NCBI GenBank assembly: GCA_016188245.1
Contig: JACPIE010000028.1
Span: 5,704-69,703, forward strand
Direction of reading: 5' to 3'
From: Candidatus Woesearchaeota archaeon
GTDB taxonomy: Archaea; Nanobdellota; Nanobdellia; Woesearchaeales; GW2011-AR4
DNA: 64,000 bases
How positions within the stretch are numbered: position 1 is the stretch's first letter; every line of letters starts with the position of its first letter. Under the pieces are notes generated by a model. That model did no database searches. It was not told the DNA's origin and saw nothing but the letters and a program-made list of their open reading frames with translations. This document shows positions 1,869 to 34,332 of this stretch, piece after piece. The position numbers were made by a program, and so were the translations under genes.

Positions 1869-2528
1869 CTAATGGCTGAAAGCATCCGCATAAATATACT
1901 TTTCCTTTGGCAGCTGCTGCTTTGTGCCGAACACGTAATCGGCAAGCGGAAGTATCACATTTAGATTTGTGCTTGGATTCAGATGATGCTGGTAGTGGTG
2001 TCTGTTAATAACCTTCATGATGCCGGTGCTGCAAATCCACCTCCATTTATTTGGCACATGCATTACTGCGTGCAGCCATTCATAGGCCGCATAATACGCC
2101 GCAAAAGCCAATCCAAATCCAATCACTTCAGGCATAAGAAGCGCAACAGAAATACCGAGCATCATGCGTATTGAGGCATCAATTCCATAAACAACGGCTG
2201 TTGCAGATGCAACAATCAGAAACCCCTCATACCATGAAAAAGTCAGCACTTCGTTCTTGTTTGTATCATCACGTGTGTAATGGTCATCCGGGGCGTAATT
2301 AGAATGATGGGAAACAACATGGCCATGCCACATCCCTTTCACATATTTGATTTTCCTTAAATGCTTTGGGGTGCTGTGAAGAAAATACTTATGAATCCCA
2401 TACTCCATGAAGCTGCCTAATGCCACTCCTGCAGCAAACCCGGCACTTATCCCAGCCCAATTGACCAATATTTTGCCTCTTTTGTCATTCCATCCCCCAT
2501 AGGTATATAAATCAATATGTTCAATCAA
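1869..2528 (-). CDS. Membrane di-iron fatty acid hydroxylase / sterol desaturase superfamily protein
   Basis: Histidine boxes HKYFLH, HGHVVSHH and NRHHYQHH, interspersed with hydrophobic segments. Confidence 0.55.
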   Translation of the reverse strand: MIEHIDLYTYGGWNDKRGKILVNWAGISAGFAAGVALGSFMEYGIHKYFLHSTPKHLRKIKYVKGMWHGHVVSHHSNYAPDDHYTRDDTNKNEVLTFSWYEGFLIVASATAVVYGIDASIRMMLGISVALLMPEVIGFGLAFAAYYAAYEWLHAVMHVPNKWRWICSTGIMKVINRHHYQHHLNPSTNLNVILPLADYVFGTKQQLPKEKYIYADAFSH

Positions 2529-3029: not shown

Positions 3030-3764
3030 CTAAAAATTCAATCCCCCATCAACTCTGATGACATCTCCTGTGATGTATCCTGCTTTGTCAGATGCAAGGA
3101 AAACGACAAGATTTGCGACATCTTCCGGCATTCCGGGCCTGCCAAGGGGCACCATTGCCATAATTATCTTTTTCCTTATGAAGGGCATGCCTTTCGTCAT
3201 GTAAGTTTCTATAAACCCCGGAGCAATGGCGTTCACAGTAACTTTTTGCTTGCCTAGCTCCCTTGCAAGAGATTTAGTAAAGCCGATTACCCCTGCCTTT
3301 GAAGCAGCGTAATTTGTTTGGCCATGGTTGCCGCTTATGCCCACAATTGAGCTTATGTTGATGATCCTTCCATTTTCCCTTATCAACGGGAGAGCGTTCT
3401 TCGTCACATTAAAAATGCCGTCCAGATTGGTCCTTACAACAAGATCCCACTGCCCCTTATCCATATTTTTCAGCGTTCTGTCGGAGATTGCGCCTGCATT
3501 ATTCACCAAAATGTCCAGATAGCCGAACTTTTTTTTAACAGCATCCATCATAGAAGAGCACTCTTCAAACTTGGAAACGTCTGCTTTAACAGCAATCGAA
3601 TCAACTCCGAGCTTTTTAATCTCTTCCACGACACCAGCCGCTTCTTTTTCATCTTTATAGTAATTGACAGCTATATCGGCATTGTTTTTAGCCAGCTCTA
3701 TAGCTATTGCCTTTCCAATTCCCCTCGAAGCTCCTGTCACCAAAGCAACTCTTCTGTTTTGCAT
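3030..3764 (-). CDS. Short-chain dehydrogenase/reductase, 3-oxoacyl-(ACP/CoA) reductase-like (FabG-like)
   Basis: TGASRGIGKAIA Rossmann motif, NNAG, and YAASKAG catalytic Y-x3-K. Start moved to ATG 3762-3764; the longer track ORF overlaps the upstream gene. Confidence 0.8.
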   Translation of the reverse strand: MQNRRVALVTGASRGIGKAIAIELAKNNADIAVNYYKDEKEAAGVVEEIKKLGVDSIAVKADVSKFEECSSMMDAVKKKFGYLDILVNNAGAISDRTLKNMDKGQWDLVVRTNLDGIFNVTKNALPLIRENGRIINISSIVGISGNHGQTNYAASKAGVIGFTKSLARELGKQKVTVNAIAPGFIETYMTKGMPFIRKKIIMAMVPLGRPGMPEDVANLVVFLASDKAGYITGDVIRVDGGLNF

Positions 3765-3774
3765 TTTTTCCCTC

Positions 3775-4743
3775 CTAAATTTTAATCGCCGTAAAATACA
3801 CCCACTCTGCCGTAAAACTTTTTCCATCAGCAAACGGATTGTTGCTTTCAAGCTCCTTAAACAATTTCAATGAAGCAATCGTTATTAATTCATCTCTGTC
3901 CTGTTCCTCTTGTTGAGAAGGCTCTTTGCCTCCAACCTCAGGCAATATTCCAGCTTGCAATCTTTTAACTCTCAAAAAATCAAGCCAATCTTTGTATTTA
4001 ACTTTAATAAGTTTATGATGTGTGCCTATATCGTCAAAACCTGCGTTTTTTAACATCTTTAGATAAACTTCTATACGCCTTGGCTCAGGAAACACAAACT
4101 TACGCTGCACATCTTCATTTTCTATCTTTTCATCAAGTCCTATCCAGTATATTTTGTATTTGACATCTGTGCGTATCAATTCCAAAGCAATTTCATGCAC
4201 CCTTTTAACAGTATCATCAATCATCAATACTCCTTTTTTCCTGCCTTCCCTCATGATATTCCCGCTTTGAAAAGCGAAGCTTCCTCCACGGCGCAATGCG
4301 GCATTTATTCCTAAAAAAGCACTTTTCAGGTCTTGTATCAGGTGAAATGTGTTGGCAGACACCACATGATTTGCAATATTCTCTCCAACTGTCTCTGCAA
4401 GCGTAGCATACCTTTCATCAATCTTATCCAGAACGAAAAACTCAACATGCGGGTTCTTTCCCAGGATTTCATAAGCCTTGCCCAGCCAGGCAGCAGAATT
4501 GTCAACAAGCCAAAGCCTGAAATTTGACTTTACGGTTTTCAAAAAATAAAAGGACAAACCCCCTGTCCCGGCTCCAAAATCAACCACGATATCCTTATCT
4601 TTTACCTTTCCCTGCACTACCCTTATAAGCTCGCTTACATTTTCGACATGCCAGGAAGCATTAATCACAGCATCGTGGTAAGCCGCAGCCCCTCTCGATA
4701 CGGGCTTGCCAGGCTGCCATGTTTTTTCCATCATTTTTTGCAT
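3775..4743 (-). CDS. Class I SAM-dependent methyltransferase
   Basis: Motif I VVDFGAGTGGLSFYF, followed by LVDNS. Track start 4758 is TTG; first ATG is at 4741-4743. Confidence 0.6.
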   Translation of the reverse strand: MQKMMEKTWQPGKPVSRGAAAYHDAVINASWHVENVSELIRVVQGKVKDKDIVVDFGAGTGGLSFYFLKTVKSNFRLWLVDNSAAWLGKAYEILGKNPHVEFFVLDKIDERYATLAETVGENIANHVVSANTFHLIQDLKSAFLGINAALRRGGSFAFQSGNIMREGRKKGVLMIDDTVKRVHEIALELIRTDVKYKIYWIGLDEKIENEDVQRKFVFPEPRRIEVYLKMLKNAGFDDIGTHHKLIKVKYKDWLDFLRVKRLQAGILPEVGGKEPSQQEEQDRDELITIASLKLFKELESNNPFADGKSFTAEWVYFTAIKI

Positions 4744-4779
4744 TTTATTCTGAAACAAAGCACGATTTTTAAACTTTCC

Positions 4780-5895
4780 TCACAATACAACCCCACTTTT
4801 TTTAAGCCTGCTTATGTATCCCTTACCATACCCCATTTGATGCATTATCTCCATAGTGTTTTCGCCAAGTTTAGGCGCCTTCTTATAACTGATTTTTTTG
4901 ACTGAAGAGAATATCACGGGCATGGCAGCTTGCCTAAACCCGTCAATATCTACAAAATTTCCCCTTTTATTTAATTCCTTATCACGAATGACATCTTCAA
5001 TCTTCTTGACAGGCTCACAGCAAAAATCATACTTTTTTCTAAGCCTTAACCAATCGCCCATCTCTTTGCTCTTGAATATCTTCTTTACTTCCTTTATTGT
5101 ACCCTCATCAAACTGCTTAGATACCAAATCACTCCTTTTGACCGCATCGCAAAAAGAATTCCAGAATTTAGTTTCTATTGCCCCAAAGCTTGCATATTTC
5201 CCATCTTTTGTTTCATAAACATTGTAGCAGGCTTTGCTGCCGGACAGAACAGTTTTTCGGTTTTTAGATACTGAATGGCGTGCAAAATGCATCCCAATAA
5301 CAGAAAGGGCGCTTCCAAATATGGAAACGTCAATATAGCTGCCTTTGCCTGTTTTTTCTCTATTATACAAGGCTGAAACTATTGAAAACGCTGCAATAAA
5401 TGCACTTGCCGCATCTGCCATTTGCACTCCCGGCACAAACGGGTTAGAAGATAGCACGTCTAGCATCCCGCTCAAACCCGAATAATTTAAGTCATGGCCT
5501 GCCTTGTTTTTGTATGGGCCTTTTTGCCCATATCCTGAGATTGAGCAATAAACTATTTTTGGGTTTACCTTTTTAATACTTTTATACCCGATTCCTAGCG
5601 CATCAGATTTTCCAGGCCTGAAACCCTCAATAATCACATCAGTATCTTTTGCAATATCAATAAATATTTTTCTACCTTCAGCTGCCTTAAGGTTTATCGC
5701 TATGCTTTTTTTGTTCCTGTTTAATGCAGAAAAATAAGGGCTTTTTTTGCCCAACATTTCAAAATGCCTCATAAAATCACCATTAAGGCTTTCCACTTTG
5801 ATTACTTCGGCGCCAAGATCAGCCAAGAATAAAGAGCACAATGGTCCCGGAAGCAGGGTTGACAAATCCAAAACTTTTATGCTTTTTAGCAGCAT
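4780..5895 (-). CDS. CoA-transferase family III protein (CaiB/BaiF / alpha-methylacyl-CoA racemase-like)
   Basis: N-terminus IKVLDLSTLLPGPLCSLFLADLGAEVIKVE and GFRPG are family III CoA-transferase hallmarks. Confidence 0.75.
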   Translation of the reverse strand: MLLKSIKVLDLSTLLPGPLCSLFLADLGAEVIKVESLNGDFMRHFEMLGKKSPYFSALNRNKKSIAINLKAAEGRKIFIDIAKDTDVIIEGFRPGKSDALGIGYKSIKKVNPKIVYCSISGYGQKGPYKNKAGHDLNYSGLSGMLDVLSSNPFVPGVQMADAASAFIAAFSIVSALYNREKTGKGSYIDVSIFGSALSVIGMHFARHSVSKNRKTVLSGSKACYNVYETKDGKYASFGAIETKFWNSFCDAVKRSDLVSKQFDEGTIKEVKKIFKSKEMGDWLRLRKKYDFCCEPVKKIEDVIRDKELNKRGNFVDIDGFRQAAMPVIFSSVKKISYKKAPKLGENTMEIMHQMGYGKGYISRLKKSGVVL

Positions 5896-5907
5896 TTGTA
5901 ATCACAA

Positions 5908-7044
5908 TCAATTAAGATTCTTGAATATGTGGACCGTGGCAACGCTGCCAACTCCTCCGATATTGTGAGCCAGCCCGTACTTTGGCTTTTTTAATTGCCT
6001 GTCTCCAGCCTCGTTCCTCATCTGCTTAACAATCTCATACACTTGCGAAATCCCGGTAGGGCTTATTGGATGCCCTTTTGCCTTTAGGCCTCCGCTTGTA
6101 TTCACAGGCAGCTTTCCGTCAATATTGGTGATGCCTTTCCTTATCATTTCTTTTCCTTCGCCTTTTTTGCAAAATCCAAGGTCTTCATATGAAATCATTT
6201 CCAACGGAGTGAAAGCATCATGCACTTCTGCCATGCCTATATCTTCCGGTCCAACTCCTGCCTGTTTGTACGCTTCTTCGGCAGCAAGCCTTGTTGCTTC
6301 CAGCGATGTCATATCCTCTCTCTCAAAAGGGCTTAAATAATCGTTCTCTTCCCCAGAGCCAACTACTTCCACATCCGACTCCGCTTTTGAAAGTACCAAT
6401 GCAGCTGCCCCATTGCACGAGATGCTGCAGTCAAAAATTCTCAATGGGGAAGCCACAACAGGGGAATTCTTGATTTCTTCCAAAGAAACATTTTTCTTGT
6501 AAAACCTTGCCTTTGGGTTCAGGAAAGCATTCTTATGGTTCTTGTAAGCGACAAGCGCAAAATCATCAGTTGTGGCGCCATGCTTCATCATATACTGCTG
6601 CGCTACAAGCGCATTTTGGGCAGGAAAGTTCAGGCCTTCAGCCTGCTCGTAGATTCTTTCTGCAGCCATCAAAATCTCATCAGTTACTTTTTTGCCAGTT
6701 GTTGCAACAAGCTTATCAAATCCAATAACAAGTATGTTTTCATAATTTCCTGATTTTTGGATTCTTAAAGCTGTCCACAAGGCAGTTCCGCCGCCGGCAC
6801 ATGCAGCAGGAACTGTTATAATCGGCAATTTTTTTTGGAATAAGCTGCTCATTTGGGAAGCACTATGCCTTTGCCTTTCCCCATTGCTTAAAAAATCATG
6901 ATTTGAAAGCACAATGGCATCAACATCATTCATTGACAGTTCTGCATCGTTCAAAGCATCCAGAGTTGCTTCGTAGACAAGATGGGTTGATGCATCCTCC
7001 TGTATCCCGAACTTAGTCATACCTACTCCCTTAATGAAACTCAT
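5908..7044 (-). CDS. Thiolase-like protein (archaeal acetyl-CoA C-acetyltransferase / SCP-x type), paralog 1
   Basis: 378 aa; GVGMTKFG N-terminus, ACAGGGTAL active-site Cys region, C-terminal NTSGGLKAKGHPISPTG and NIGGVG. Start overlaps the stop of the upstream gene (ATGA at 7041-7044). Confidence 0.8.
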   Translation of the reverse strand: MSFIKGVGMTKFGIQEDASTHLVYEATLDALNDAELSMNDVDAIVLSNHDFLSNGERQRHSASQMSSLFQKKLPIITVPAACAGGGTALWTALRIQKSGNYENILVIGFDKLVATTGKKVTDEILMAAERIYEQAEGLNFPAQNALVAQQYMMKHGATTDDFALVAYKNHKNAFLNPKARFYKKNVSLEEIKNSPVVASPLRIFDCSISCNGAAALVLSKAESDVEVVGSGEENDYLSPFEREDMTSLEATRLAAEEAYKQAGVGPEDIGMAEVHDAFTPLEMISYEDLGFCKKGEGKEMIRKGITNIDGKLPVNTSGGLKAKGHPISPTGISQVYEIVKQMRNEAGDRQLKKPKYGLAHNIGGVGSVATVHIFKNLN

Positions 7045-8495
7045 CTGATCACCCTTGAAAGAAGTTTTTTCATTTTGGATTTTACTTTATCAACCGGAGT
7101 TATTTTTGGCATGCCTTTTGTATCCAGCAATTTTTTTAACAGCACAAGCTGCTCAACAGCATCAAGCCTTTCATCTATCCGGACAACAGATGCTATGCCC
7201 ATTTCATCAATTTTTTTTGATGCACAATCCCCCAAAACAACCAGCCTTTCCCTGCCTTTTAGCATATCCTCGCTGAGCATTGAGCCGATAACCAAATTGA
7301 GCTCATCCCCCCTCAATCCCACTAATTTTGAAGTGAGGCTGTACATCATATTCAGGCAGGCAGGGCATGCTTTTCCGTCAATGACTTTAATATCCGGATG
7401 GGGAGTTTCGTTTGGGGTAGGCTGCTTAATTGGATACTTAAGCGCTTCAAGATCATTTCCCACAATTTCAATGTTTTTGATGTTGATTTTCCCTAGAGAG
7501 TTTGTTACATGCAAAGGTATCGGCAAAATAGTTGATTCGCAAAAGACAGTGTCAAGCGCAGCGGCATTCAATCCTGCAAAAACCAGATTCAAGAAAGCCG
7601 GCTCTCCCAAAACCAAAGGGCCCTGTGCCTGCATTCCATTTGTTGCATCAGCTATTGTAACAATGCCAGGAAGCAGCTTTGCCATCTGCGGAAGCGTTTT
7701 ATCAATTCCCTTAAAATACATCTGCCTTTGGGTTTCCTCATCAGCAAGCCTTGATAGATTTTCCAATGCACCAGAAATCCCAATCTGAAAATTTGTCTTC
7801 ATTATCGGCACATTTACAATTTTCCTTTTCAAAGCCTCTTTAGATAAGCTGAACATGAAACCGTCTGACTCAATTTCCTCAAAAGGGCCTTTTGAAATAT
7901 CCTCGAACTTTACTGAATGCTTCTTGCACACCTCAAGAATTCCTGATTTTGAGGCAGCATCCATCACATCGCTTCCTATAAGCGCCTGCTCGGCAACAAT
8001 AATATTGCCTTTGCCTATGCCATATTCAAACAGGACTTTAAGCAATGCGTCCAAAAAATCAGGGTTAGTATTAACTGCCTGATAAGGGTAGGCTGCTGTT
8101 ACAATGCTGGGCTTGATGAGTATCTTGTCATCCGGGCTGAATTTGATGCCATTCAAAAGCCCAACTGCTTCTTTTATTGCTTCATAAATGTCGTACTTTA
8201 CTTTCACGACAGCGACAGCATCTTTTGTTTTTGCATTTGGCTGAGAATAAGCATCGCCTATCTTGTAATCTTTCATGGTTTTTTTCGGCATCCTGTTGCC
8301 AAACTCATCTTCAAGAAGAAGTATATTGTAAGGCGTAATCGGATGCATAGGTGACGGGATTGCCACTTTGGTTATACCGGAAACTTTTATCTTAGTTCCT
8401 TTCTGCTTTGTGATTGTTCCCTTGCAATAGACACATTTCTCAACAGGATAAATCCATTTCTTATTGCATTTTTCACATATCCATCTTATTATCAT
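7041..8495 (-). CDS. Fusion protein: DUF35-type zinc-ribbon + OB-fold N-terminus joined to a DUF362 domain
   Basis: N-terminus CEKCNKKWIYPVEKCVYCKG followed by an OB-like segment, as in the DUF35 scaffold of archaeal thiolase complexes. The rest (ILIKPSIV..NTNPDFLDALLKVLFEYG..IIVAE, C-terminal ACPACL) resembles DUF362. Translationally coupled to both thiolase genes. Confidence 0.6.
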   Translation of the reverse strand: MIIRWICEKCNKKWIYPVEKCVYCKGTITKQKGTKIKVSGITKVAIPSPMHPITPYNILLLEDEFGNRMPKKTMKDYKIGDAYSQPNAKTKDAVAVVKVKYDIYEAIKEAVGLLNGIKFSPDDKILIKPSIVTAAYPYQAVNTNPDFLDALLKVLFEYGIGKGNIIVAEQALIGSDVMDAASKSGILEVCKKHSVKFEDISKGPFEEIESDGFMFSLSKEALKRKIVNVPIMKTNFQIGISGALENLSRLADEETQRQMYFKGIDKTLPQMAKLLPGIVTIADATNGMQAQGPLVLGEPAFLNLVFAGLNAAALDTVFCESTILPIPLHVTNSLGKINIKNIEIVGNDLEALKYPIKQPTPNETPHPDIKVIDGKACPACLNMMYSLTSKLVGLRGDELNLVIGSMLSEDMLKGRERLVVLGDCASKKIDEMGIASVVRIDERLDAVEQLVLLKKLLDTKGMPKITPVDKVKSKMKKLLSRVIR

Positions 8496-9616
8496 AAGCT
8501 CACCTTCTTCAGTATGTTCACAGTCACGGTGCTTCCTGCCCCGCCAATATTCTGCGCAAGGCCATACCTCACATTGTTAACCTGCCTGTCTCCTGCTTCA
8601 TTCCTCATCTGCTTAACAATCTCATATACCTGTGAAACGCCTGTTGCGCTTATCGGATGGCCTTTTGCCTTCAACCCTCCGCTTGTGTTTACAGGCAATT
8701 TTCCGTCAATGTTTGTAACGCCTTTCCTTATCATTTCTTTTCCTTCGCCTTTTTTGCAAAATCCAAGGTCTTCATAGCTAATCAGCTCAACAGAAGTAAA
8801 GGCATCATGCAGCTCTGCAATGTCAATATCAGCAGGAGAAATTCCAGCCTGGTTGTAAGCTTCCTCAGCAGCAAGCTTTGTAGCATCCCAGGATGTCATG
8901 TCCTGGCTTTCAAAAGCAGGAAGCCTGTCAACATATAAGCTCGAGCCTGCAATCTCAATGTCAGTCTTCTCTTTTGTCAATATAGCTGCGGCAGCGCCAT
9001 TGACAGACAGGCTGCAGTCAAAAAGCCTTAACGGAGAAGCAACAACAGGAGATTTCTTAATTTGTTTTAAAGTGACTTCTCTTTTGTAGAACCTTGCCTT
9101 CGGGTTCAGGAAAGCATTCTTATGGTTTTTATATGCAACCAAAGCAAAATCATCAAGAGTCACCCCATATCTGAGCATGTACTGCTGCGCTACAAGCGCA
9201 TTTTGGGCAGGAAAGTTCAGGCCTTCAGCCTGCTCGTAGATTCTTTCTGCAGCCATTAAAATCTCATCAGTTATCCTCATGGAGTTGTTTGTCAGCAGCC
9301 TTTCAACACCTACAACAAGCACATTATTGTAATCAAGCTTGTTGGCTGTCCACAAAGCTGCTCCGCCGCCGCCGCAAACAGCAGTTGCGGTTAAGATAGG
9401 CACTTTCTTTCTTAAGATGCTGTTTAGGATATTTGAAAACAGCCTTTGCCTTTCTCCATTGCTTTCCGTGTCAACTGCAGAAACCACAACTGCATCAATA
9501 TCCCCTATCCCGGAATCAGCATTCTCGACAGCTTCCAAAGTAGCCTCGTAAACAAGCTTCTGGCTAGAGTCTGTCTGTGCCCCAAACTTTGTCATGCCCA
9601 CCCCCTTAACATACAT
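8492..9616 (-). CDS. Thiolase-like protein, paralog 2
   Basis: 374 aa, collinear with 5908-7044. Shares long identical peptides (ITDEILMAAERIYEQAEGLNFPAQNALVAQQYM, FCKKGEGKEMIRKG, IDGKLPVNTSGGLKAKGHPIS). Confidence 0.8.
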   Translation of the reverse strand: MYVKGVGMTKFGAQTDSSQKLVYEATLEAVENADSGIGDIDAVVVSAVDTESNGERQRLFSNILNSILRKKVPILTATAVCGGGGAALWTANKLDYNNVLVVGVERLLTNNSMRITDEILMAAERIYEQAEGLNFPAQNALVAQQYMLRYGVTLDDFALVAYKNHKNAFLNPKARFYKREVTLKQIKKSPVVASPLRLFDCSLSVNGAAAAILTKEKTDIEIAGSSLYVDRLPAFESQDMTSWDATKLAAEEAYNQAGISPADIDIAELHDAFTSVELISYEDLGFCKKGEGKEMIRKGVTNIDGKLPVNTSGGLKAKGHPISATGVSQVYEIVKQMRNEAGDRQVNNVRYGLAQNIGGAGSTVTVNILKKVSL

Positions 9617-9625
9617 AGAATCACC

Positions 9626-10114
9626 TTACTTAAACTTTGCCCTGAACTCTTCTTTGCTGACAATCGCCAGCATAAGGAGGGCTTCTGCAACTAACACGCC
9701 TTTGCTAAAAGTTTTGCCCTGAAGAATAGCACCTCTTTCATCCTGGGCTATCAAATCAACTTCAAATCTTACCTGAGCCGGGGGCAGTATCGGCGCAAAA
9801 AACTTAACTTCTTTAAGCTTATGGGCAAGCACATCCTTTTCCTGATGGTTTGGGATGTTGCTTCTTGCCAATAAAGTGGCTGCCTGCCCCATGCCTTCCA
9901 CTGTCAAAGCGCCAGGGGTGATTGGGAATCCAACAAAATGGCCTTTGTAAAAATCTTCTTTGCCGGTGAATTCTTTTACCGCTATCACTTTGTTTCTTGT
10001 TAGGCTTGTAATCTTGTCCAGGAATAAAAAAGGCTTGTCATAAGGGATTATCTTCATAATGCCCGGAATGCCAATTTCTCCCTGTGAATTTTTAAGCTCG
10101 TTGATTGTATTCAT
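9626..10114 (-). CDS. Hotdog-fold dehydratase, FabZ/FabA-like (3-hydroxyacyl thioester dehydratase)
   Basis: FLFLDKITSL and GHFVGFPITPGALTVEGMGQAA match the FabZ active-site region. Confidence 0.7.
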   Translation of the reverse strand: MNTINELKNSQGEIGIPGIMKIIPYDKPFLFLDKITSLTRNKVIAVKEFTGKEDFYKGHFVGFPITPGALTVEGMGQAATLLARSNIPNHQEKDVLAHKLKEVKFFAPILPPAQVRFEVDLIAQDERGAILQGKTFSKGVLVAEALLMLAIVSKEEFRAKFK

Positions 10115-10176
10115 TTCAGTAAATTTACCTCTTTGCCCATTTAAAAAACTTTCTACTGGGCTATTCTACAATCTAT

Positions 10177-12180: not shown

Positions 12181-12209
12181 TTTTAATACTTCTTGATTAT
12201 ACTTTAGAT

Positions 12210-12929
12210 ATGTATAAAATATTCCGCTTTAAATCCTTAACATCAACCCAGGACAAAGCTAAAGAATTCTCCAAGAAAGGATTAAGCGATATAGTAGTTG
12301 TTGCCGGTGTTCAGACAAAAGGAATTGGGCGCTTCAAGAGAAAATGGCATTCCGGCAAAGGCGGATTATGGATGTCGATTTTGCTGAAGCCAAAAAGCAT
12401 CAAAAATTCCCAATATCTCACTTTTATTGCTGCAATCTCTGTTGCTGAATCAATACAAAAGATATCAAAATTAAAAACAAATATTAAATGGCCAAATGAT
12501 GTGCATTACAAAAGGAAAAAACTATGCGGCATACTTACAGATGGCATTTTTGGCAAAGATAATTTTATTGCTGTCGGAATAGGATTAAATGTCAACCAAA
12601 ATAAATTTCCAAGAGAAATAAGCAATACGGCAACTTCATTAAATCTCATAAAGCACAGGGCTTTCAGCATCAAAAAATTACTGGACGAAATAACGAATAA
12701 GTTCTTTTATTTGTATGAAAATTACTACATCAAAAATAAATTAGAATATATACTAAACTCATGGAAAAAATATAGTGACACTATAGGCAAGAATGTAATA
12801 GTTGCCACAAGAACAAAAAAGATTTACGGAAAAGCCATAGGCATCGATAAAAACTGCAATTTGCTATTAAGGCAAAAAAAAAGAAGAATAACAAAGATTA
12901 TTGAAGGAGACATAACTGTCAGGCATTAG
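12210..12929 (+). CDS. birA: Biotin-[acetyl-CoA-carboxylase] ligase
   Basis: GIGRFKRKWHSGKGGLWMSILLKP matches the GRGRxGRxWxSxxGxL biotin-ligase motif; also KWPNDV. No N-terminal HTH is evident. Confidence 0.8.
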   Translation: MYKIFRFKSLTSTQDKAKEFSKKGLSDIVVVAGVQTKGIGRFKRKWHSGKGGLWMSILLKPKSIKNSQYLTFIAAISVAESIQKISKLKTNIKWPNDVHYKRKKLCGILTDGIFGKDNFIAVGIGLNVNQNKFPREISNTATSLNLIKHRAFSIKKLLDEITNKFFYLYENYYIKNKLEYILNSWKKYSDTIGKNVIVATRTKKIYGKAIGIDKNCNLLLRQKKRRITKIIEGDITVRH

Positions 12930-13324
12930 CCAATCTTAATCTTCTTCCTTAAATCGTCTGGAATCTTGATTGACTTCATTTTTTTCCAGTCCACAAAAAC
13001 ATTTACAGTGTAGCCTGCTGCAAGCAGCTTTTTGTCCTTCTTCCTGTAAACCTTATGCTCAAATTTAACGCTTTTTTCCTTTATTTCTGTGATATTTGTT
13101 TCTACAATTACAACATCATCATACCTAGCAGGGTGGAAATAATTGCAATGTGCTTCGACAACAGGAGTGATTATGCCTCTTTCGCTAAGCGCATTGTAGC
13201 CAATCTTCAAGCTTCTGAATATCTCTCGCCTTCCGCTTTCAAACCACCTAAAATAGTTGGCATAATAAACAACCTGGCCGGCGTCTGTGTCGCCATATAT
13301 AACACGGTGCTCTACCTTGTGCAT
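12926..13324 (-). CDS. Acyl-CoA thioesterase, 4HBT/YbgC hotdog family
   Basis: HRVIYGDTDAGQVVYYANYFRWFESGRREIFRSL is the YbgC-type catalytic Asp region. Track start 13342 is TTG; ATG is at 13322-13324. Confidence 0.75.
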   Translation of the reverse strand: MHKVEHRVIYGDTDAGQVVYYANYFRWFESGRREIFRSLKIGYNALSERGIITPVVEAHCNYFHPARYDDVVIVETNITEIKEKSVKFEHKVYRKKDKKLLAAGYTVNVFVDWKKMKSIKIPDDLRKKIKIG

Positions 13325-13439
13325 GGCAAATGCAAAAAGCAAGTACTATTTATGCTTTGCCACAATTAAGGAAGATACTCAATTTTTGAATCCAACAGTT
13401 TCAAAACCTTTAAAAAAGCCATGAATTAACTTCATCTTA

Positions 13440-13667
13440 ATGTCTATTTTGAAGAACGTGCCTATCCTGGGAAAGCTTCTTGAAATAGGCTATGCAATGC
13501 TTGTTGTGGTGGTATTAAGCGCATTGGTTGGGCTGATTCTTGCATTTCCTGTTATGTGGCTGTGGAACTTTGTTTTCGGGAACCTGCACAAAATAAGCGT
13601 GTTCCAGGCATGGGCGCTGAATGTGCTTGCAGGAATACTCTTCGGGCAGAGAAATTCTAATAAATAA
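13440..13667 (+). CDS. Small membrane protein (2 predicted TM segments)
   Basis: 75-aa ORF with an ATG start and two hydrophobic stretches. No recognisable family. Confidence 0.35.
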   Translation: MSILKNVPILGKLLEIGYAMLVVVVLSALVGLILAFPVMWLWNFVFGNLHKISVFQAWALNVLAGILFGQRNSNK

Positions 13668-13786
13668 TGATATCAACAAGCTTATTTTAAAGAAATAAAG
13701 GTGGGCACATCCTAAGTTCAGCGTTTAGAAACAATGGAAAAGCAGTCTTTGCTCCCGATGTAGATTTTGGAACATTAGTTTTCGGA

Positions 13787-16081: not shown

Positions 16082-16471
16082 TCACTCCAGCACAGCCAGC
16101 ACATCCCCTTTGTTCACATTATCGTTCTTTTTGACTTTGATTTCTTTGATAATTCCGTCCCTTGGCGCAACAACATCATTTTCCATCTTCATTGCAATAA
16201 GCGTAAACAAGCTTTGCCCTTGCCCAACCTTGGCTCCGTCCTTAACTTTAACATCATAAATTACGCCTGGCAGCGGCGCTGTTATCTCAATTTTCCCCCC
16301 TTCAGCTGCCTGCTTTTTATGAAGCCTCTCAATGGCTGACTGCTCAATATCCTTTTTAGTTTCAACCTCGTAAACATCGCCTTCGCAATGGACAAGAACC
16401 TTGCCTTGCTCTGTTTCCTCTACAAGAACCTTGTATTCCTTGCCGTCAACCTTAACAACTATCTCTTCCAT
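16082..16471 (-). CDS. accB: Biotin carboxyl carrier protein (biotinyl domain)
   Basis: C-terminal LIAMKMENDVVAPRDGIIKEIKV contains the AMKM biotinylation motif. Sits 2 nt downstream of the carboxyltransferase gene. Confidence 0.85.
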   Translation of the reverse strand: MEEIVVKVDGKEYKVLVEETEQGKVLVHCEGDVYEVETKKDIEQSAIERLHKKQAAEGGKIEITAPLPGVIYDVKVKDGAKVGQGQSLFTLIAMKMENDVVAPRDGIIKEIKVKKNDNVNKGDVLAVLE

Positions 16472-16473
16472 GT

Positions 16474-17991
16474 CTACAAAGGAATGTTGCCGTGTTTTTT
16501 AGAAGGCCTTTTTTCCCTTTTGGAAAGCAGCATGTCAAGGCACTTAATCAGGGAAATCCTTGCATCTTTGGGCTCTATAATCATGTCAACCTTGCCAAGC
16601 TCAGCAGCAGCATAAGGATTAAGGTATTTTTTTGTATATTCATTTACAAGGTCTGCTTTGGCTTTTGTGTTTTTGCTCATCTCTTCCCTGTTTATGATGC
16701 TGACAGCCTGCTCTGCCCCCATTACTGCAATTTCAGCAAACGGCAATGCGATAACCTTGTCAAACCCCATATCCTTTGAGACCATTGCAATATACGCCCC
16801 TCCATAAGCTTTTCTTAACACAAGAGATATCTTGGGAACAGCAGCCTCAGAATAAGCAAAAAGGACTTTTGCACCGTGCCTTATAATCCCATTATGCTCC
16901 TGCTCTGTGCCAGGCAGGTAGCCGGTTACATCAACAAGATTAATCAATGGAATGTTGAAGCAATCGCAAAATCTTACAAATCTTGCCATCTTATCCGAAG
17001 AGTTTATGTCAAGGCAGCCTGCAAGCACTTTTGGCTGGTTTGCCACTATTCCGACAACATTGCCGTTAAGCCTTGCAAATCCGGCTATTATATTGGATGC
17101 ATAAGCAGCCTGAATCTCAAAAAAAGATTTTTTGTCGAAAACCTCAATAATCACATCTTTCATGTCATACGCTTTTTTAGGGTCTTCAGGCACTATTGAC
17201 TCAAGCTTTTTGGTTTCCCTGTCTGCAGCATCATTCGCATAGTAAGGCGGGCTTTCCAGGTTATTCTGGGGAAGGTAGCTCAGCAAAATTTTCAGCATAT
17301 CCAGGCAGTCCTTTTCACTGTCAGCAGCAAAATGCGCAACGCCGCTTTTTTCATTATGTATGGAAGAGCCTCCAAGCTTCTCGAAATCTATTGACTCATT
17401 AGTTACGGTCTTGATGACTTCAGGGCCGGTAATGAACATATAGCTTGTTTTTTTTACCATCAAAATGAAATCAGTCAGAGCAGGAGAGTAAACAGCTATT
17501 CCTGCGCAGGGCCCCATTATGGCCGATATCTGCGGCACAATGCCAGACATTGTTGTATTAAGCTGGAATATTCTGCCTCCTGTGTCCAAAGCCGAAATCC
17601 CTTCCTGTATCCTTGCCCCCCCTGAATCGAGCAATCCTATGCAAGGGCATCCTGTTTTCAACGCCAGCTCCATAACATTGGCGATTTTCCTGTTGTGCAT
17701 CTCACCCATTGAGCCCCCGACAAAAGAGAAATCCTGGGCGTAGACGTAAACTGGCTTTTTGCCTATCATCCCATATCCCGTAATGACCCCATCTCTTGGC
17801 TTTTTCTTCCCAAGCTGCTGGCTTTGATGCTCTGCAAATGCATCCAGCTCAACAAAAGAACCAGGATCAAGCAGATAGTTCAGCCTTTCTTTCGCTGTCA
17901 GCTTGCCTTTCTTGTGCTGCAGCTCAGCAGCCGGCTTGTCATTATCCAGCTCTTTTCTTTTCTCAAGAAACTCCTTAAGCTTTCCCCCCAT
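16474..17991 (-). CDS. Acyl-CoA carboxylase carboxyltransferase subunit (propionyl-CoA carboxylase beta / methylmalonyl-CoA decarboxylase alpha family)
   Basis: 505 aa; DSGGARIQEG, MGPCAGIAVYSPALTDF and ANQPKVLAGCLD are typical of the fused carboxyltransferase family. Confidence 0.85.
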   Translation of the reverse strand: MGGKLKEFLEKRKELDNDKPAAELQHKKGKLTAKERLNYLLDPGSFVELDAFAEHQSQQLGKKKPRDGVITGYGMIGKKPVYVYAQDFSFVGGSMGEMHNRKIANVMELALKTGCPCIGLLDSGGARIQEGISALDTGGRIFQLNTTMSGIVPQISAIMGPCAGIAVYSPALTDFILMVKKTSYMFITGPEVIKTVTNESIDFEKLGGSSIHNEKSGVAHFAADSEKDCLDMLKILLSYLPQNNLESPPYYANDAADRETKKLESIVPEDPKKAYDMKDVIIEVFDKKSFFEIQAAYASNIIAGFARLNGNVVGIVANQPKVLAGCLDINSSDKMARFVRFCDCFNIPLINLVDVTGYLPGTEQEHNGIIRHGAKVLFAYSEAAVPKISLVLRKAYGGAYIAMVSKDMGFDKVIALPFAEIAVMGAEQAVSIINREEMSKNTKAKADLVNEYTKKYLNPYAAAELGKVDMIIEPKDARISLIKCLDMLLSKREKRPSKKHGNIPL

Positions 17992-31993: not shown

Positions 31994-32068
31994 TACTAGA
32001 GTACTTACGTTAGGCGAACTTTCCCAAATTAAGAAAATTTATAAATCAAAAAATCTTCTTTTTTGTTA

Positions 32069-32749: not shown

Positions 32750-32879
32750 ATTCAAAAGAGACCAATAAAAACAGAGAGATCTCAAGACATTAAAAATATA
32801 AAATTGCTCATAAACGATGTAGTTAATAACAAAATGTTTCTTGTTGAAAAACCAATTGGATTTGATTTGTTGGAAAAGG

Positions 32880-33647: not shown

Positions 33648-33674
33648 ATATTAAAATTAATTTTTTCAGAAAAA

Positions 33675-34247: not shown

Positions 34248-34332
34248 AAAATTAGAAAAGATGATATTACTATTATCAATTCAGCTATTATGTTCTCAAA
34301 AATGCCATCTAAAGTTATCATTTTTAGTTAAA

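What the first reader, a model, noticed from the sequence alone, without database searches (positions are those of the whole stretch)
3030..17991. Bacterial-style acyl/fatty-acid gene neighbourhood in an archaeal genome
Fifteen kilobases contain eleven acyl-metabolism genes: a FabG-like SDR, a family III CoA-transferase, two thiolases, a DUF35-DUF362 fusion and a FabZ-like dehydratase, together with biotin carboxylase, BirA, a 4HBT thioesterase, BCCP and carboxyltransferase. No ACP, ketoacyl-ACP synthase or enoyl reductase is visible in the window. This composition matches the proposed ACP-independent archaeal fatty-acid route (thiolase + reductase + dehydratase acting on CoA esters). It could equally be a reversed beta-oxidation or a carboxylation module. 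Together with gpsA at the window edge, it raises the question of whether this presumably host-dependent archaeon makes fatty-acyl lipids or scavenges them.
Basis: partly seen in the sequence, partly recalled or inferred. Interest (0 to 1): 0.65.

Follow-up and report, generated by a model that had tools for sequence, protein, structure and literature searches.

The report
ACP-free fatty-acid gene cluster, Woesearchaeota
A small, probably host-dependent archaeon carries a conserved gene block that looks able to build fatty acids on coenzyme A without an acyl carrier protein. The block sits next to genes for attaching fatty acids to bacterial-type glycerol-3-phosphate, so this archaeal lineage may make bacterial-style membrane lipids itself.

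Summary
The window comes from a DPANN archaeon of the Woesearchaeota/Nanoarchaeota.

About 40 related contigs keep the same layout. A carboxyltransferase, BCCP, BirA and biotin carboxylase lie on one side. Facing them is a tight operon: FabZ, thiolase, DUF35-DUF362 fusion, thiolase, sometimes a CoA-transferase and methyltransferase, then FabG. GpsA and two PlsC-type acyltransferases follow a few genes on. In this window they would lie just beyond the left edge.

Sister lineages add a Bcd-like acyl-CoA dehydrogenase with EtfAB, which supplies the enoyl reductase missing here. No ACP, KAS or FabD was found anywhere.

The condensing core is archaeal-type: two thiolase paralogs flank a gene for a DUF35 domain. 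The reductase and dehydratase are bacterial-type. The DUF35 domain is fused to a LarA-like DUF362 domain of unknown role.

Best reading (about 0.6): CoA-based fatty-acid synthesis feeding G3P ester lipids. Rivals are butyrate-type fermentation, cofactor precursor supply and catabolism. I rate it a new variant of a known kind.

The parts
2..592 (+). 3' part of gpsA (NAD(P)H-dependent glycerol-3-phosphate dehydrogenase). The gene start lies beyond the left edge of the window. In relatives, two PlsC-type acyltransferase genes lie directly upstream of it.
   Evidence: Pfam NAD_Gly3P_dh_C 5.7e-56 and GPD_NAD_C_bact. NCBIfam PRK00094 family, 253 bits. Relatives show PlsC-PlsC-GpsA.
1869..2528 (-). 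Membrane protein of the FA_hydroxylase (di-iron lipid hydroxylase/desaturase) superfamily. Possibly an accessory lipid-modifying enzyme.
   Evidence: Pfam FA_hydroxylase 1.2e-09. Present at the same place in L003 and L020 only.
3030..3764 (-). FabG-type 3-ketoacyl reductase (244 aa). It is the last gene of the operon.
   Evidence: adh_short_C2 2e-68. TIGR01830 297.7 bits against a cut-off of 297.75. E 2.4e-71 to B. anthracis FabG 2UVD. Motifs TGASRGIG, Ser and YxxxK are present. A GGAGG lies before ATG at M30.
3775..4758 (-). Class I SAM-dependent methyltransferase of unknown substrate. It is an accessory member and is fused to the SDR in some relatives.
   Evidence: Generic Methyltransf_12/31/25 hits around 1e-7. 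BioC scores only 29.5 bits against a cut-off of 185. No PDB relative. A 573-aa MT-SDR fusion occurs in L005. The gene is absent from the short-fusion lineages and some others.
4780..5895 (-). Family III CoA-transferase/racemase homologue. It is an accessory member, present in about half of the clusters.
   Evidence: CoA_transf_3 5e-94. Closest PDB entries are SUGCT 9BR6 (3.5e-52), formyl-CoA transferase, and alpha-methylacyl-CoA racemases (about 1e-40). Presence and absence are shown.
5908..7044 (-). Thiolase B (378 aa), an SCP2/archaeal-type thiolase.
   Evidence: Thiolase_C_1 1e-49. Closest PDB entries are 7YVY, the 6ESQ thiolase, 4YZO and BbsB. The nucleophile Cys, the GHP His and the HDAF motif are invariant in 26 orthologues. 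Its start overlaps the fusion gene's stop (ATGA).
7041..8495 (-). DUF35-DUF362 fusion (484 aa). It has an N-terminal Zn-ribbon plus OB fold (DUF35), then a LarA-like two-domain body with a Cys-containing C-terminal part.
   Evidence: Pfam DUF362 1e-24. AF2 pLDDT 81. Foldseek matches residues 1-100 to DUF35 subunits (6OK1, 7PXP, 5M3K, 6ESQ) and the rest to LarA-family enzymes (9EIA, 7S91, 9Q3J; E 2e-7 to 3e-4). It is 65-78% identical across its 120 closest cluster representatives, all Woesearchaeota, Nanoarchaeota or Pacearchaeota where named.
8492..9616 (-). Thiolase A (374 aa), a paralogue of thiolase B (67% identity).
   Evidence: Its stop overlaps the fusion gene's start (ATGA).
9626..10114 (-). 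FabZ-like (3R)-hydroxyacyl dehydratase. It is the first gene of the operon.
   Evidence: FabA/FabZ Pfam 4e-18. FabZ PDB hits about 1e-19, with the GHF His and VEG Glu present. NCBIfam FabZ models score below their cut-offs.
10115..10260 (.). A 146-bp AT-rich divergent intergenic region. TATA-like elements lie upstream of both FabZ and the biotin carboxylase gene.
   Evidence: Sequence read: TTTAAAAAA at 10140-10148 and TTTATATAA at 10230-10238. The divergent arrangement is conserved in all relatives.
10261..12180 (+). Biotin carboxylase (639 aa). It carries a conserved N-terminal extension of about 135 aa of unknown function.
   Evidence: Biotin_carb_N, CPSase_L_D2 and Biotin_carb_C. TIGR00514 accC 651 bits. 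The extension aligns in all 26 relatives. It has no Pfam or NCBIfam hit. Its AF2 model is uninformative (pLDDT 48).
12210..12929 (+). BirA-type biotin-protein ligase without a repressor domain.
   Evidence: BPL_LplA_LipB and BPL_C. TIGR00121 171 bits against a cut-off of 83.
12926..13342 (-). YbgC/FadM-type 4HBT acyl-CoA thioesterase. It is an accessory member.
   Evidence: 4HBT_2 2e-23. TIGR00051 106 bits against a cut-off of 68.7. Present in about half of the relatives.
13440..13667 (+). Conserved 75-aa hydrophobic membrane protein. It is always found beside BirA, BioY or the 4HBT gene.
   Evidence: ORF and sequence. tblastn gives 60-87% identity in nearly all loci. No family hit. It is not ACP-like.
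16082..16471 (-). Biotin carboxyl carrier protein.
   Evidence: Biotin_lipoyl 1e-18. The AMKM motif is present.
16474..17991 (-). Single-chain acyl-CoA carboxyltransferase of the PccB/AccB type.
   Evidence: Carboxyl_trans 2e-180. Closest PDB entries are 1VRG (2.5e-181) and S. coelicolor PccB (1.4e-175). Ile occupies the position of PccB Asp422.

Best explanation
The interval is the core of a lineage-wide Woesearchaeal supercluster for fatty-acid synthesis on CoA esters, without an acyl carrier protein. It is coupled to synthesis of glycerol-3-phosphate ester lipids.

Proposed flow, with each step marked as shown or inferred:

1. The three-subunit biotin carboxylase makes malonyl-CoA from acetyl-CoA. 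The subunits are BC with an extra N-terminal domain, BCCP and a PccB-type CT. The adjacent BirA charges the carrier with biotin. The genes and motifs are shown. The substrate is inferred from Ile at the PccB-D422 position.
2. Two paralogous archaeal-type thiolases perform the Claisen condensation that extends acyl-CoA by two carbons. The DUF35 domain encoded between them holds them together. The genes, the overlapping start and stop codons, and the intact nucleophile Cys and His residues are shown. Complex formation is inferred from the 6ESQ, BbsAB, PhlABC and Sulfolobus FAS precedents. Whether the extender is acetyl-CoA or malonyl-CoA is unknown. The invariant carboxylase neighbourhood, and the absence of the SCP2-thiolase acid/base Cys (HDAF instead of HDCF), make a decarboxylative reaction plausible.
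3. FabG reduces the 3-ketoacyl-CoA. FabZ dehydrates the (3R)-hydroxyacyl-CoA. The genes and catalytic residues are shown.
4. The enoyl-CoA is then reduced. In sister lineages a Bcd/AcrC-like acyl-CoA dehydrogenase with EtfAB is encoded in the same gene string, which is shown. In the window's lineage the reductase is not in the neighbourhood and remains unidentified.
5. The acyl-CoA is transferred by two PlsC-type acyltransferases to glycerol-3-phosphate made by GpsA. The genes and the HX4D and PEGxR motifs are shown in relatives. In the window these genes would lie just beyond the left edge.

The LarA-like DUF362 body fused to DUF35 is tethered to the thiolases. It either acts on their substrate or product, or recruits the reductase and dehydratase. 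Its chemistry is unknown. The CoA-transferase, methyltransferase and thioesterase are accessory and lineage-variable. They probably serve chain release or modification.
For: The operon is tight. The ThlA/fusion and fusion/ThlB junctions overlap by ATGA, and the other gaps are 9-21 nt. It shares a 146-bp divergent promoter region with BC-BirA.

Synteny is conserved in about 40 contigs from groundwater, marine (Tara) and other metagenomes, at 44-86% protein identity.

GpsA and two PlsC-type genes are always nearby. In L041, L043 and the P0158 contig they form one co-directional string: FabZ-Thl-fusion-Thl-FabG-ACAD-EtfB-EtfA-PlsC-PlsC-GpsA.

The ACAD scores best against clostridial acryloyl-CoA reductase AcrC (538 bits). 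EtfB carries GRQAIDGDTAQVGP, which from my own knowledge is the signature of bifurcating Etf.

The PlsC-type proteins have HX4D and PEG[TG]R.

The DUF35 fold of the fusion matches the thiolase-binding subunits of 6ESQ, 7PXP, 5M3K and 6OK1.

A DUF35 protein assembles thiolase, SDR reductase and dehydratase into a fatty-acid synthase in S. acidocaldarius (bioRxiv 10.1101/2024.07.05.601840).

CT has Ile at the PccB-D422 position, as in the D422I chain 1XNW.

No ACP was found in the window or in about 0.7 Mb of related loci.

Thiolase plus DUF35-DUF362 pairs also occur outside this lineage. One sits next to FakA/FakB, an acyltransferase and a glycosyltransferase (L047). Another sits with an SDR and a methyltransferase (L045).

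Biotin uptake (BioY) or biotin synthesis (bioB/F/D) genes fill the variable slot beside BirA. This fits an operational carboxylase.

Prior literature reports 'bacterial fatty acid synthesis' genes and G3P dehydrogenase in Woesearchaeota (PMC8204110), and GpsA/PlsC in DPANN (PMC6431249).
Against: - No enoyl reductase lies in the window or within +-10 kb in any long-fusion relative. One short-fusion relative (L044) also lacks ACAD/Etf nearby.
- Nothing indicates the chain length of the product.
- The thiolases are not known decarboxylating enzymes. The characterised Sulfolobus ketothiolase does not use malonyl-CoA.
- No CDP-diacylglycerol or head-group genes were seen.
- DPANN are generally thought to take lipids from hosts (PMC11868695). 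No lipid data exist for this lineage.
- The FabZ scores fall below the NCBIfam FabZ cut-offs.
- In the window's lineage, GpsA and the PlsC genes are separated from the operon by TRAM, LigT and S2 genes and lie on the other strand.
Confidence: 0.6

Rival explanations
1. Fermentative reverse beta-oxidation. The thiolases, FabG, FabZ and (elsewhere or in sister lineages) Bcd/EtfAB convert acetyl-CoA from pyruvate into butyryl- or short-chain acyl-CoA. The purpose would be redox balance and ferredoxin-linked energy conservation. The CoA-transferase or thioesterase would release the acid.
For: Sister lineages encode a clostridial-type Bcd/AcrC-like ACAD with EtfAB. In L040, L042 and L043 the three pyruvate/2-oxoacid:ferredoxin oxidoreductase subunits are inserted in the operon. 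The window has a CoA-transferase and a 4HBT thioesterase. Woesearchaeota are described as fermenters (PMC5994134).
Against: A biotin carboxylase set with its own BirA is adjacent in all but one relative whose contig reaches that far (L041 has RtcA there instead). It has no role in butyrate fermentation. PlsC-PlsC-GpsA follows EtfA directly in the same orientation. The reductase and dehydratase are the (R)-specific FabG and FabZ types, not Hbd and crotonase. The CoA-transferase is family III, not the butyryl-CoA:acetate type. It is missing from about half of the clusters, including all the Bcd/Etf-containing ones. Two thiolase paralogues are retained everywhere.
Confidence: 0.15
2. The pathway mainly supplies short acyl precursors for cofactors, not membrane lipids. 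One candidate is a pimeloyl thioester for biotin, made by a BioC-like methyltransferase that disguises malonyl-CoA. Another is octanoate for lipoate.
For: The methyltransferase gives a weak BioC hit and is fused to the ketoreductase in some genomes. bioB, bioF and bioD lie beside the cluster in L007 and L015. The CoA-transferase's closest solved relative acts on dicarboxylates (SUGCT). Schmerling et al. raise cofactor synthesis as a role for archaeal fatty acids.
Against: The BioC score is 29.5 bits against a cut-off of 185. The methyltransferase is present in genomes that carry the BioY transporter instead of bio genes. It is absent from many clusters that keep everything else. No BioH-type esterase is conserved. 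The GpsA and PlsC linkage is not explained.
Confidence: 0.08
3. Catabolic beta-oxidation or remodelling of fatty acids scavenged from a host. The thiolases would work thiolytically. The carboxylase would handle propionyl-CoA from odd-chain substrates.
For: Thiolases, ACAD/ETF (in sister lineages), a CoA-transferase and a PccB-type carboxyltransferase are all standard catabolic parts. DPANN are thought to depend on host lipids.
Against: FabG and FabZ are biosynthetic, (3R)-specific types. No acyl-CoA synthetase, crotonase or 3HCDH, and no methylmalonyl-CoA epimerase or mutase, was seen in the window or relatives. CT carries Ile rather than Asp at the propionyl-selective position. The ACAD resembles reductive AcrC/Bcd enzymes. 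The cluster is co-localised with glycerolipid acyltransferases.
Confidence: 0.07
4. The thiolases and DUF35 belong to the mevalonate pathway as the archaeal thiolase/HMG-CoA synthase/DUF35 complex. The carboxylase belongs to leucine or propionate metabolism. The co-location would be coincidental.
For: Thiolase-DUF35 pairs are the canonical partners of archaeal HMG-CoA synthase (6ESQ). The thiolases' closest solved relatives include that thiolase.
Against: No HMG-CoA synthase lies in the window. Where relatives have an HMGCS-like gene, it comes with its own separate thiolase-like and DUF35 genes downstream of FabG (L003, L015, L027, L037, L038). The carboxylase has separate BC and BCCP subunits and a PccB-type CT that scores far higher against PCC/ACC beta subunits than against methylcrotonyl-CoA carboxylase. 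The gene order is conserved across about 40 contigs.
Confidence: 0.03

Closest known systems
Archaeal fatty-acid synthase complex of Sulfolobus acidocaldarius: ketothiolase Saci_1121 / DUF35 Saci_1120 + SDR ketoacyl-CoA reductase Saci_1104 + MaoC dehydratase Saci_1085, with a separate ECR Saci_1115 (Schmerling et al., bioRxiv 10.1101/2024.07.05.601840)
   Same: Both are ACP-independent and run on CoA esters. Both use a thiolase as the condensing enzyme, paired with a DUF35 domain. Both use an SDR ketoreductase and a hot-dog-fold dehydratase.
   Different: Here two thiolase paralogues flank the DUF35 gene. The DUF35 is fused to a roughly 380-aa LarA-like DUF362 body. The dehydratase is FabZ-type, not MaoC-type. 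The reductase is a close homologue of Firmicute FabG. An acyl-CoA carboxylase with BirA is adjacent in all but one relative whose contig reaches that far, whereas the Sulfolobus route was shown not to use malonyl-CoA. The enoyl reductase is Bcd/EtfAB in sister lineages and unknown here. GpsA and PlsC genes are linked to the cluster.
[quoted passage not shown]
   Same: The thiolases are of the same type (E 4e-63 and 2.5e-57). A DUF35 Zn-ribbon/OB module is encoded next to them. Two thiolase-superfamily proteins flank one DUF35.
   Different: The second thiolase-fold partner is another thiolase (67% identical), not an HMG-CoA synthase. The DUF35 is a domain of a larger protein. The thiolases carry HDAF where 6ESQ has HDCF.
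Bacterial type II fatty-acid synthesis (FabD/H/F, ACP, FabG, FabZ, FabI) with acetyl-CoA carboxylase
   Same: A FabG homologue, essentially at the equivalog cut-off (297.7 bits against 297.75). A FabZ-like dehydratase with the catalytic His and Glu. A biotin-dependent carboxylase plus BirA. GpsA and PlsC-type acyltransferases downstream.
   Different: No ACP, AcpS, FabD, KAS I/II/III or FabI/K/L/V was found. The carboxyltransferase is a single 55-kDa PccB-type chain, not AccA/AccD. There is no PlsX/PlsY or PlsB.
Clostridial butyryl-CoA pathway (Thl-Hbd-Crt-Bcd/EtfAB), also called reverse beta-oxidation
   Same: Chain extension is CoA-based and thiolase-driven. Sister lineages have a Bcd/AcrC-like dehydrogenase with EtfAB, sometimes with POR.
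   Different: FabG and FabZ take the place of Hbd and crotonase. A carboxylase and lipid acyltransferases are attached. Bcd/Etf is absent from the window and its close relatives.
Lactate racemase LarA and LarA-like nickel-pincer-nucleotide enzymes (PDB 9EIA, 7S91, 9Q3J). DUF362 and DUF2088 share Pfam clan CL0471 (PMC11770544).
   Same: The overall two-domain fold of residues ~100-484 of the fusion (Foldseek probability 1.0, E 2e-7 to 3e-4).
   Different: There is no detectable sequence similarity. TM-scores are low (0.31-0.41). No His is invariant in the DUF362 domain across long and short forms. The short-form proteins lack the C-terminal part.
Archaea with bacterial-type glycerolipid genes (GpsA/PlsC in DPANN and in environmental Euryarchaeota; Coleman et al. 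2019, PMC6431249; Castelle et al. 2021, PMC8204110)
   Same: This is the same lineage-level observation: Woesearchaeota carry GpsA and 'bacterial fatty acid synthesis' genes.
   Different: Those surveys list presence and absence of genes. As far as I could find, they do not describe the thiolase/DUF35-DUF362 core, the carboxylase linkage, the Bcd/Etf variant or the operon architecture.

Membership tests
Archaeal DUF35-mediated fatty-acid synthase (Sulfolobus type) | A ketothiolase gene paired with a DUF35 (Zn-ribbon + OB) protein | tested here: met
   Two thiolases flank the fusion gene, with overlapping stop and start codons. The DUF35 fold of residues 1-100 is supported by Foldseek, and four Cys are invariant across the 28 long-form sequences.
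Archaeal DUF35-mediated fatty-acid synthase (Sulfolobus type) | An SDR 3-ketoacyl-CoA reductase in the pathway | tested here: met
   A FabG-type SDR is the last operon gene. Specificity for CoA against ACP was not tested.
Archaeal DUF35-mediated fatty-acid synthase (Sulfolobus type) | A MaoC-type (R)-hydroxyacyl-CoA dehydratase | tested here: not met
   The dehydratase is FabZ/FabA-type. A MaoC gene occurs only in a separate second gene set in some relatives.
Archaeal DUF35-mediated fatty-acid synthase (Sulfolobus type) | [quoted passage not shown] | tested here: not met
   None in the window or in related loci. Sister lineages use ACAD + EtfAB instead.
Archaeal DUF35-mediated fatty-acid synthase (Sulfolobus type) | A stable physical complex, and condensation from acetyl-CoA without malonyl-CoA | not testable with these tools
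   This needs reconstitution. The conserved carboxylase neighbourhood suggests the extender may differ.
Bacterial type II FAS | An acyl carrier protein and its synthase | tested here: not met
   No PP-binding hit in the scanned ORFs. The regex gave 0 hits. The tblastn best E was 0.18 over the window plus 44 loci. The rest of the genome was not searched.
Bacterial type II FAS | KAS I/II/III condensing enzymes and FabD | tested here: not met
   Only SCP2/archaeal-type thiolases are present.
Bacterial type II FAS | FabG and FabZ | tested here: met
   FabG scores 297.7 bits against TIGR01830 (cut-off 297.75). FabZ-like has the His and Glu but scores below the FabZ cut-offs.
Thiolase/HMG-CoA synthase/DUF35 mevalonate complex | An HMG-CoA synthase gene adjacent to the thiolase and DUF35 genes | tested here: not met
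   There is no HMGCS in the window. In relatives the HMGCS-like gene has its own thiolase-like and DUF35 genes.
SCP2-type thiolase (catalytically competent) | A nucleophilic Cys, a GHP His, and the HDCF motif with the acid/base Cys | tested here: inconclusive
   The Cys and both His are invariant. The motif is HDAF in all 56 orthologues, as in 7YVY. Another invariant Cys (FDCS) could substitute.
Acetyl-CoA carboxylase (archaeal/actinobacterial three-subunit type) | BC, a BCCP with MKM, a single-chain CT, and acceptance of acetyl-CoA | tested here: inconclusive
   All three subunits and the AMKM motif are present. Ile occupies the PccB-D422 position. From my own knowledge of Diacovich et al. 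2004 this permits acetyl-CoA. Activity was not tested.
LarA / nickel-pincer-nucleotide enzymes | A LarA fold plus the cofactor-binding Lys/His and catalytic His residues | tested here: inconclusive
   The fold similarity is significant but loose. There is no sequence match. No His is invariant in the DUF362 domain across long and short forms. A residue-level structural alignment was not available.
BioC malonyl-thioester O-methyltransferase | A score above the BioC equivalog cut-off, and co-occurrence with bio genes | tested here: not met
   29.5 bits against a cut-off of 184.95. The gene is present with BioY-only neighbourhoods and absent from some clusters.
Glycerolipid acyltransferases (PlsC/LPLAT family) | HX4D and (F/P)EGTR motifs | tested here: met
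   Both motifs are present in the two paralogues of L007. In L041 the second block was confirmed in PlsC2 only; PlsC1 reads PEGHR. The genes themselves lie outside the window.

The most novel reading that the evidence does not exclude
Woesearchaeales operate a third kind of fatty-acid synthase that depends on malonyl-CoA but lacks ACP. Two Cys-His-His thiolase paralogues lack the usual acid/base cysteine and are bridged by a DUF35 domain. They would perform decarboxylative condensation on CoA esters. The fused LarA-like DUF362 domain would be a new catalytic component. In the long form it could be the missing enoyl or ketoacyl reductase, or an acyl-handling enzyme. The acyl-CoA products would go straight to PlsC-type acyltransferases. 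A DPANN archaeon would then build bacterial-type G3P ester phospholipids de novo and so cross the 'lipid divide' naturally.
Probability: 0.2. Interest if true: 0.85.

Novelty: new variant of a known kind. Interest (0 to 1): 0.62.

Why it matters
DPANN archaea are usually described as unable to make membrane lipids and as stealing them from hosts. Archaea in general are defined by isoprenoid ether lipids on glycerol-1-phosphate.

This lineage keeps a nearly self-contained gene set under strong purifying selection. It covers acetyl-CoA carboxylation, CoA-based chain elongation, G3P formation and two acyl transfers.

If the set is functional, three things follow. It gives a natural and testable case of an archaeon making bacterial-type phospholipids. 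It extends the newly demonstrated archaeal DUF35-type fatty-acid synthase to a different architecture. It also assigns a first physiological context to the large DUF362 family, with about 6,700 clusters at 50% identity. The small set of proteins is directly amenable to reconstitution.

Tried and rejected
1. ACP hidden in small ORFs. The 75-aa conserved ORF at 13440-13667 is a hydrophobic membrane protein, not an ACP. The regex and tblastn searches were negative.
2. The N-terminal extension of the biotin carboxylase as a carrier or docking domain. It is conserved. It has no family hit. Only 4 fragmentary homologues were retrieved. The AF2 model is unusable (pLDDT 48).
3. A sequence-level link of the fusion to solved structures. 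None was found.
4. Pfam detection of DUF35. None even at E<=5. I relied on fold evidence.
5. A clean rule that the short fusion goes with ACAD/Etf and the long fusion lacks it. L044 and L038 are short forms without ACAD/Etf nearby, so the C-terminal domain as a replacement reductase remains only a hypothesis.
6. The methyltransferase as BioC or as a CFA synthase. The BioC score is far below cut-off and there is no CMAS hit. It has no PDB relative.
7. An aryl-polyene or flexirubin-type pathway, suggested by ApeI-like and FlxB sub-threshold hits. I rejected it because there is no KS, ACP or adenylating enzyme.
8. PHA synthesis. I rejected it because there is no PhaC.
9. Recovering the window's own contig to read beyond the left edge. 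The look-ups returned only 2-kb Logan contigs or nothing.
10. Literature searches for 7YVY and a broad FabG/FabZ query were unproductive. The Vögeli et al. PNAS paper is not held.

Full report
**Organism and setting**

The window is archaeal. It encodes PCNA, FEN1, a tRNA-splicing endonuclease, Hjc, a Hef-type helicase/nuclease, the primase small subunit and an archaeal CCA-adding enzyme. The closest relatives of its proteins that carry names are from Candidatus Woesearchaeota, Pacearchaeota or Nanoarchaeota. Several MAGs in the genome collection are titled 'uncultured Methanosarcinales' but carry the same genes, so I take those titles to be placeholders. G+C across the interval (0.36-0.44) does not stand out from the rest of the window. 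Archaeal informational genes flank the block on both sides. I therefore see no sign of a chimeric contig or a recent insertion.

**Check of the observation**

Four refinements follow.

- FabG starts at Met30 of the long ORF, behind a GGAGG, which gives 244 aa.
- The biotin carboxylase starts at Met29 of the ORF, at position 10261. It keeps an N-terminal extension of about 135 aa that is conserved in all 26 relatives examined and matches no known family.
- The 'DUF35' part of the fusion is invisible to Pfam. It is nevertheless real. An AlphaFold model (pLDDT 81) matches the DUF35 subunits of Ltp2-ChsH2, benzoylsuccinyl-CoA thiolase, PhlABC and the archaeal thiolase/HMG-CoA synthase complex over residues 1-100. 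It matches LarA-family racemases over the remainder. The four Zn-ribbon cysteines are invariant across the 28 long-form sequences.

I found no ACP, ketoacyl-ACP synthase, FabD or enoyl reductase in the window.

**Operon anatomy**

On the minus strand the order is FabZ, thiolase A, fusion, thiolase B, CoA-transferase, methyltransferase, FabG. The gaps are 9-21 nt. The thiolase A/fusion and fusion/thiolase B junctions are 4-nt ATGA overlaps, a layout usual for subunits made in fixed proportion. A 146-bp AT-rich region with TATA-like boxes on both sides separates FabZ from the divergently transcribed biotin carboxylase and BirA genes. BCCP and the carboxyltransferase lie a few kilobases further on. 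Between them is a slot whose content varies between genomes.

**Comparative evidence**

A scan of one genome per species found 34 loci, all in Woesearchaeota or Nanoarchaeota MAGs. Contig look-ups added more. I mapped the window's proteins and extra queries onto all loci with tblastn. The result is one recurrent architecture:

- CT, BCCP
- a variable slot: BioY, or bioB/F/D, or the beta-lactamase-like gene
- the small membrane protein, sometimes 4HBT, then BirA and BC
- facing these: FabZ, Thl, fusion, sometimes a second FabG, Thl, sometimes CoA-transferase, sometimes methyltransferase, FabG
- sometimes a set of HMGCS-like, thiolase-like, DUF35, MaoC and SDR genes
- TRAM, LigT, S2
- GpsA, PlsC, PlsC

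In the window, S2 and the 3' end of gpsA are the last genes at the left edge. The two acyltransferase genes would therefore lie just outside it.

Protein identities across these loci range from 44 to 86%, so the order is maintained by selection and not by recent common descent. The variable slot always relates to biotin supply or is filler. That fits a working biotin enzyme.

**The enoyl reductase**

A more distant group has a shorter fusion (~375 aa, 44-47% identity) that lacks the C-terminal ~125 residues. It shows one co-directional string: FabZ, Thl, fusion, sometimes the three POR subunits, Thl, FabG, acyl-CoA dehydrogenase, EtfB, EtfA, PlsC, PlsC, GpsA. The dehydrogenase scores best against clostridial acryloyl-CoA reductase AcrC. 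EtfB carries the GRQAIDGDTAQVGP sequence, which I recall as typical of bifurcating Etf. This fills the reductase gap in those lineages and puts the lipid acyltransferases in the same string.

In the window's own group no ACAD/Etf lies within 10 kb in any locus. One short-fusion locus (L044) also lacks it. That locus carries instead a pyridine-nucleotide-disulphide flavoprotein and a B12-binding radical-SAM/DUF4070 gene. So the tempting idea that the long fusion's extra domain replaces Bcd/Etf is not established.

**Enzymology that can be read from sequence**

- *Thiolases.* The two are 67% identical. Their closest solved relatives are archaeal and SCP2-type thiolases that work with DUF35 partners. 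In 30 and 26 orthologues respectively, the nucleophilic Cys, the GHP His and the His of the HDxF motif are invariant. The acid/base Cys of the SCP2-thiolase HDCF motif (role described in PMC12329534) is always Ala. Another invariant Cys (FDCS) might take over that role. Alternatively, enolate formation might come from decarboxylation of malonyl-CoA. The second possibility would explain why a carboxylase is adjacent in all but one relative whose contig reaches that far. This is inference. The Sulfolobus ketothiolase does not use malonyl-CoA.
- *Carboxyltransferase.* It is PccB-like (E 1e-181 to 1e-175). It has Ile where S. coelicolor PccB has Asp422. It aligns to the Ile of chain 1XNW, which I take to be the D422I mutant. 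From my recollection of Diacovich et al. 2004, that substitution admits acetyl-CoA.
- *FabG.* It has the TGASRGIG, Ser and YxxxK motifs and is close to Firmicute FabG.
- *FabZ.* The catalytic His and Glu are present.
- *Acyltransferases.* Both paralogues in L007 carry HX4D and PEG(T/G)R. In L041 the second block was confirmed in PlsC2 only; PlsC1 reads PEGHR.

**The DUF362 part**

DUF362 shares a Pfam clan with the LarA N-terminal domain (PMC11770544), and the model's fold agrees. There is no sequence-level match to any solved structure. No histidine is invariant in the domain when long and short forms are aligned. The invariant polar residues are K128, Y138, T143, E169, D199, N228, T234, E245, N246, D283 and D315. 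Three low-confidence loops of the model coincide with highly conserved motifs, as expected for ligand- or partner-binding loops.

A profile search of 1.84 billion representatives finds about 6,700 DUF362 clusters. Only a few dozen also cover the DUF35 region. Four of these more distant fusions were located on contigs.

- One is Woesearchaeal (L046).
- One sits in thiolase-fusion-SDR order with a flavodoxin-like protein, a methyltransferase and acyl-CoA mutases (L045).
- One overlaps a thiolase gene beside FakA/FakB, an acyltransferase and a glycosyltransferase (L047).
- One stands alone in a bacterial genome (L048).

The thiolase plus DUF35-DUF362 pair is therefore a recurring module of acyl and lipid metabolism. 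By analogy with ChsH2-DUF35, where DUF35 tethers the neighbouring pathway enzyme to a thiolase-fold partner, I infer that DUF362 acts on, or organises enzymes acting on, the thiolase substrate or product. Its reaction is unknown.

**Interpretation**

The most economical reading is an ACP-free, CoA-based fatty-acid synthase whose product feeds G3P ester-lipid synthesis. It is a hybrid. The condensing core is the archaeal thiolase/DUF35 kind shown to work in S. acidocaldarius. The reductase, dehydratase, G3P dehydrogenase and acyltransferases are bacterial-type.

It differs from the Sulfolobus system in six respects: the paired thiolases, the DUF35-DUF362 fusion, FabZ instead of MaoC, the attached carboxylase, the Bcd/Etf reductase in sister lineages, and the lipid genes.

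The rivals are listed with their evidence in the rival section: butyrate-type fermentation, cofactor precursor supply, catabolism, and mevalonate with leucine or propionate metabolism. None of them explains the carboxylase-BirA adjacency together with the PlsC-PlsC-GpsA linkage.

**Relation to the literature**

Castelle et al. [quoted passage not shown] Coleman et al. 2019 record GpsA and PlsC in DPANN. Later work still assumes these archaea cannot make the building blocks themselves (PMC11868695). I found no description of the thiolase/DUF35-DUF362 core, its carboxylase linkage or the Bcd/Etf variant in the searchable library. The Sulfolobus paper does not mention DPANN. I therefore rate it a new variant of a known kind, of moderately high interest.

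**Limits**

Only the window and +-10 kb around relatives could be read. Absence of ACP or of a reductase from whole genomes is not shown. Chain length, extender unit, complex formation and expression are all untested. Several mechanistic rules I used come from memory and are marked as such: the Etf bifurcation motif, the PccB D422 rule, and the ACP query sequences.

Noticed in passing
window 10261-10665: The biotin carboxylase carries a conserved N-terminal extension of about 135 aa, with motifs such as ITxNVxKRLPHVDE and SFLEILTxGFGIN. It is present in all Woesearchaeal orthologues, which are 616-646 aa long. It has no Pfam, NCBIfam or structural assignment.
   Followed up: partly
window 13440-13667: A 75-aa hydrophobic protein with two or three predicted membrane helices is conserved at 60-87% identity next to BirA, BioY or 4HBT in nearly every related locus. 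Its function is unknown. It may relate to biotin transport.
   Followed up: partly
window 61996-63117: An AAA+ protein with a sigma-54 interaction domain and a Fis-type HTH_8, that is a bacterial enhancer-binding-protein architecture, lies in an archaeal genome that should have no sigma-54. It has no receiver domain.
   Followed up: no
window 53606-57643: A DNA gyrase A subunit of 1345 aa is interrupted by an intein (Intein_splicing hit spanning residues 125-643).
   Followed up: no
window ~32000-38400: A low-G+C island (0.28-0.30, against about 0.40 elsewhere) holds an Mrr-type restriction endonuclease and several ORFs without any family hit. It is probably a mobile or defence island.
   Followed up: no
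window 59919-61080: A DedA/VTT-domain membrane protein and a PAP2 phosphatase lie side by side. Both families act on membrane lipids or lipid carriers.
   Followed up: no
window 13787-16081: A 764-aa protein with a weak class-A beta-lactamase-like domain (residues 460-657) and a long low-complexity N-terminal half occupies the slot that holds BioY or bioB/F/D in other genomes. Relatives are only 25-31% identical to it.
   Followed up: no
L003 15759-19406; also L015, L027, L037, L038: Some relatives have a second gene set after FabG: HMGCS-like, thiolase-like, DUF35, MaoC, SDR. Its thiolase-like protein has Asp or Glu in place of the nucleophilic Cys (AGDASG against AACASG in 6ESQ), so it is probably not a thiolase.
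   Followed up: partly
L044 12314-15253: One short-fusion relative has a B12-binding radical-SAM/DUF4070 gene and a pyridine-nucleotide-disulphide flavoprotein inside the fatty-acid cluster. The literature reports possible membrane-spanning-lipid synthase homologues in Woesearchaeia (PMC11868695, PMC13159169). Whether this gene is one of them was not tested.
   Followed up: no
L047 5347-7532 and L045 6574-9927: More distant DUF35-DUF362 fusions (~340-350 aa) outside the Woesearchaeal cluster also sit directly after a thiolase gene. One is beside FakA/DegV, an acyltransferase and a glycosyltransferase. The other is with an SDR, a flavodoxin-like protein, a methyltransferase and acyl-CoA mutases.
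   Followed up: partly
L040, L042, L043 (for example L043 11139-13490): Three subunits of a pyruvate/2-oxoacid:ferredoxin oxidoreductase are inserted between the fusion gene and the second thiolase gene in some short-fusion lineages. This links acetyl-CoA and reduced-ferredoxin supply to the operon.
   Followed up: partly
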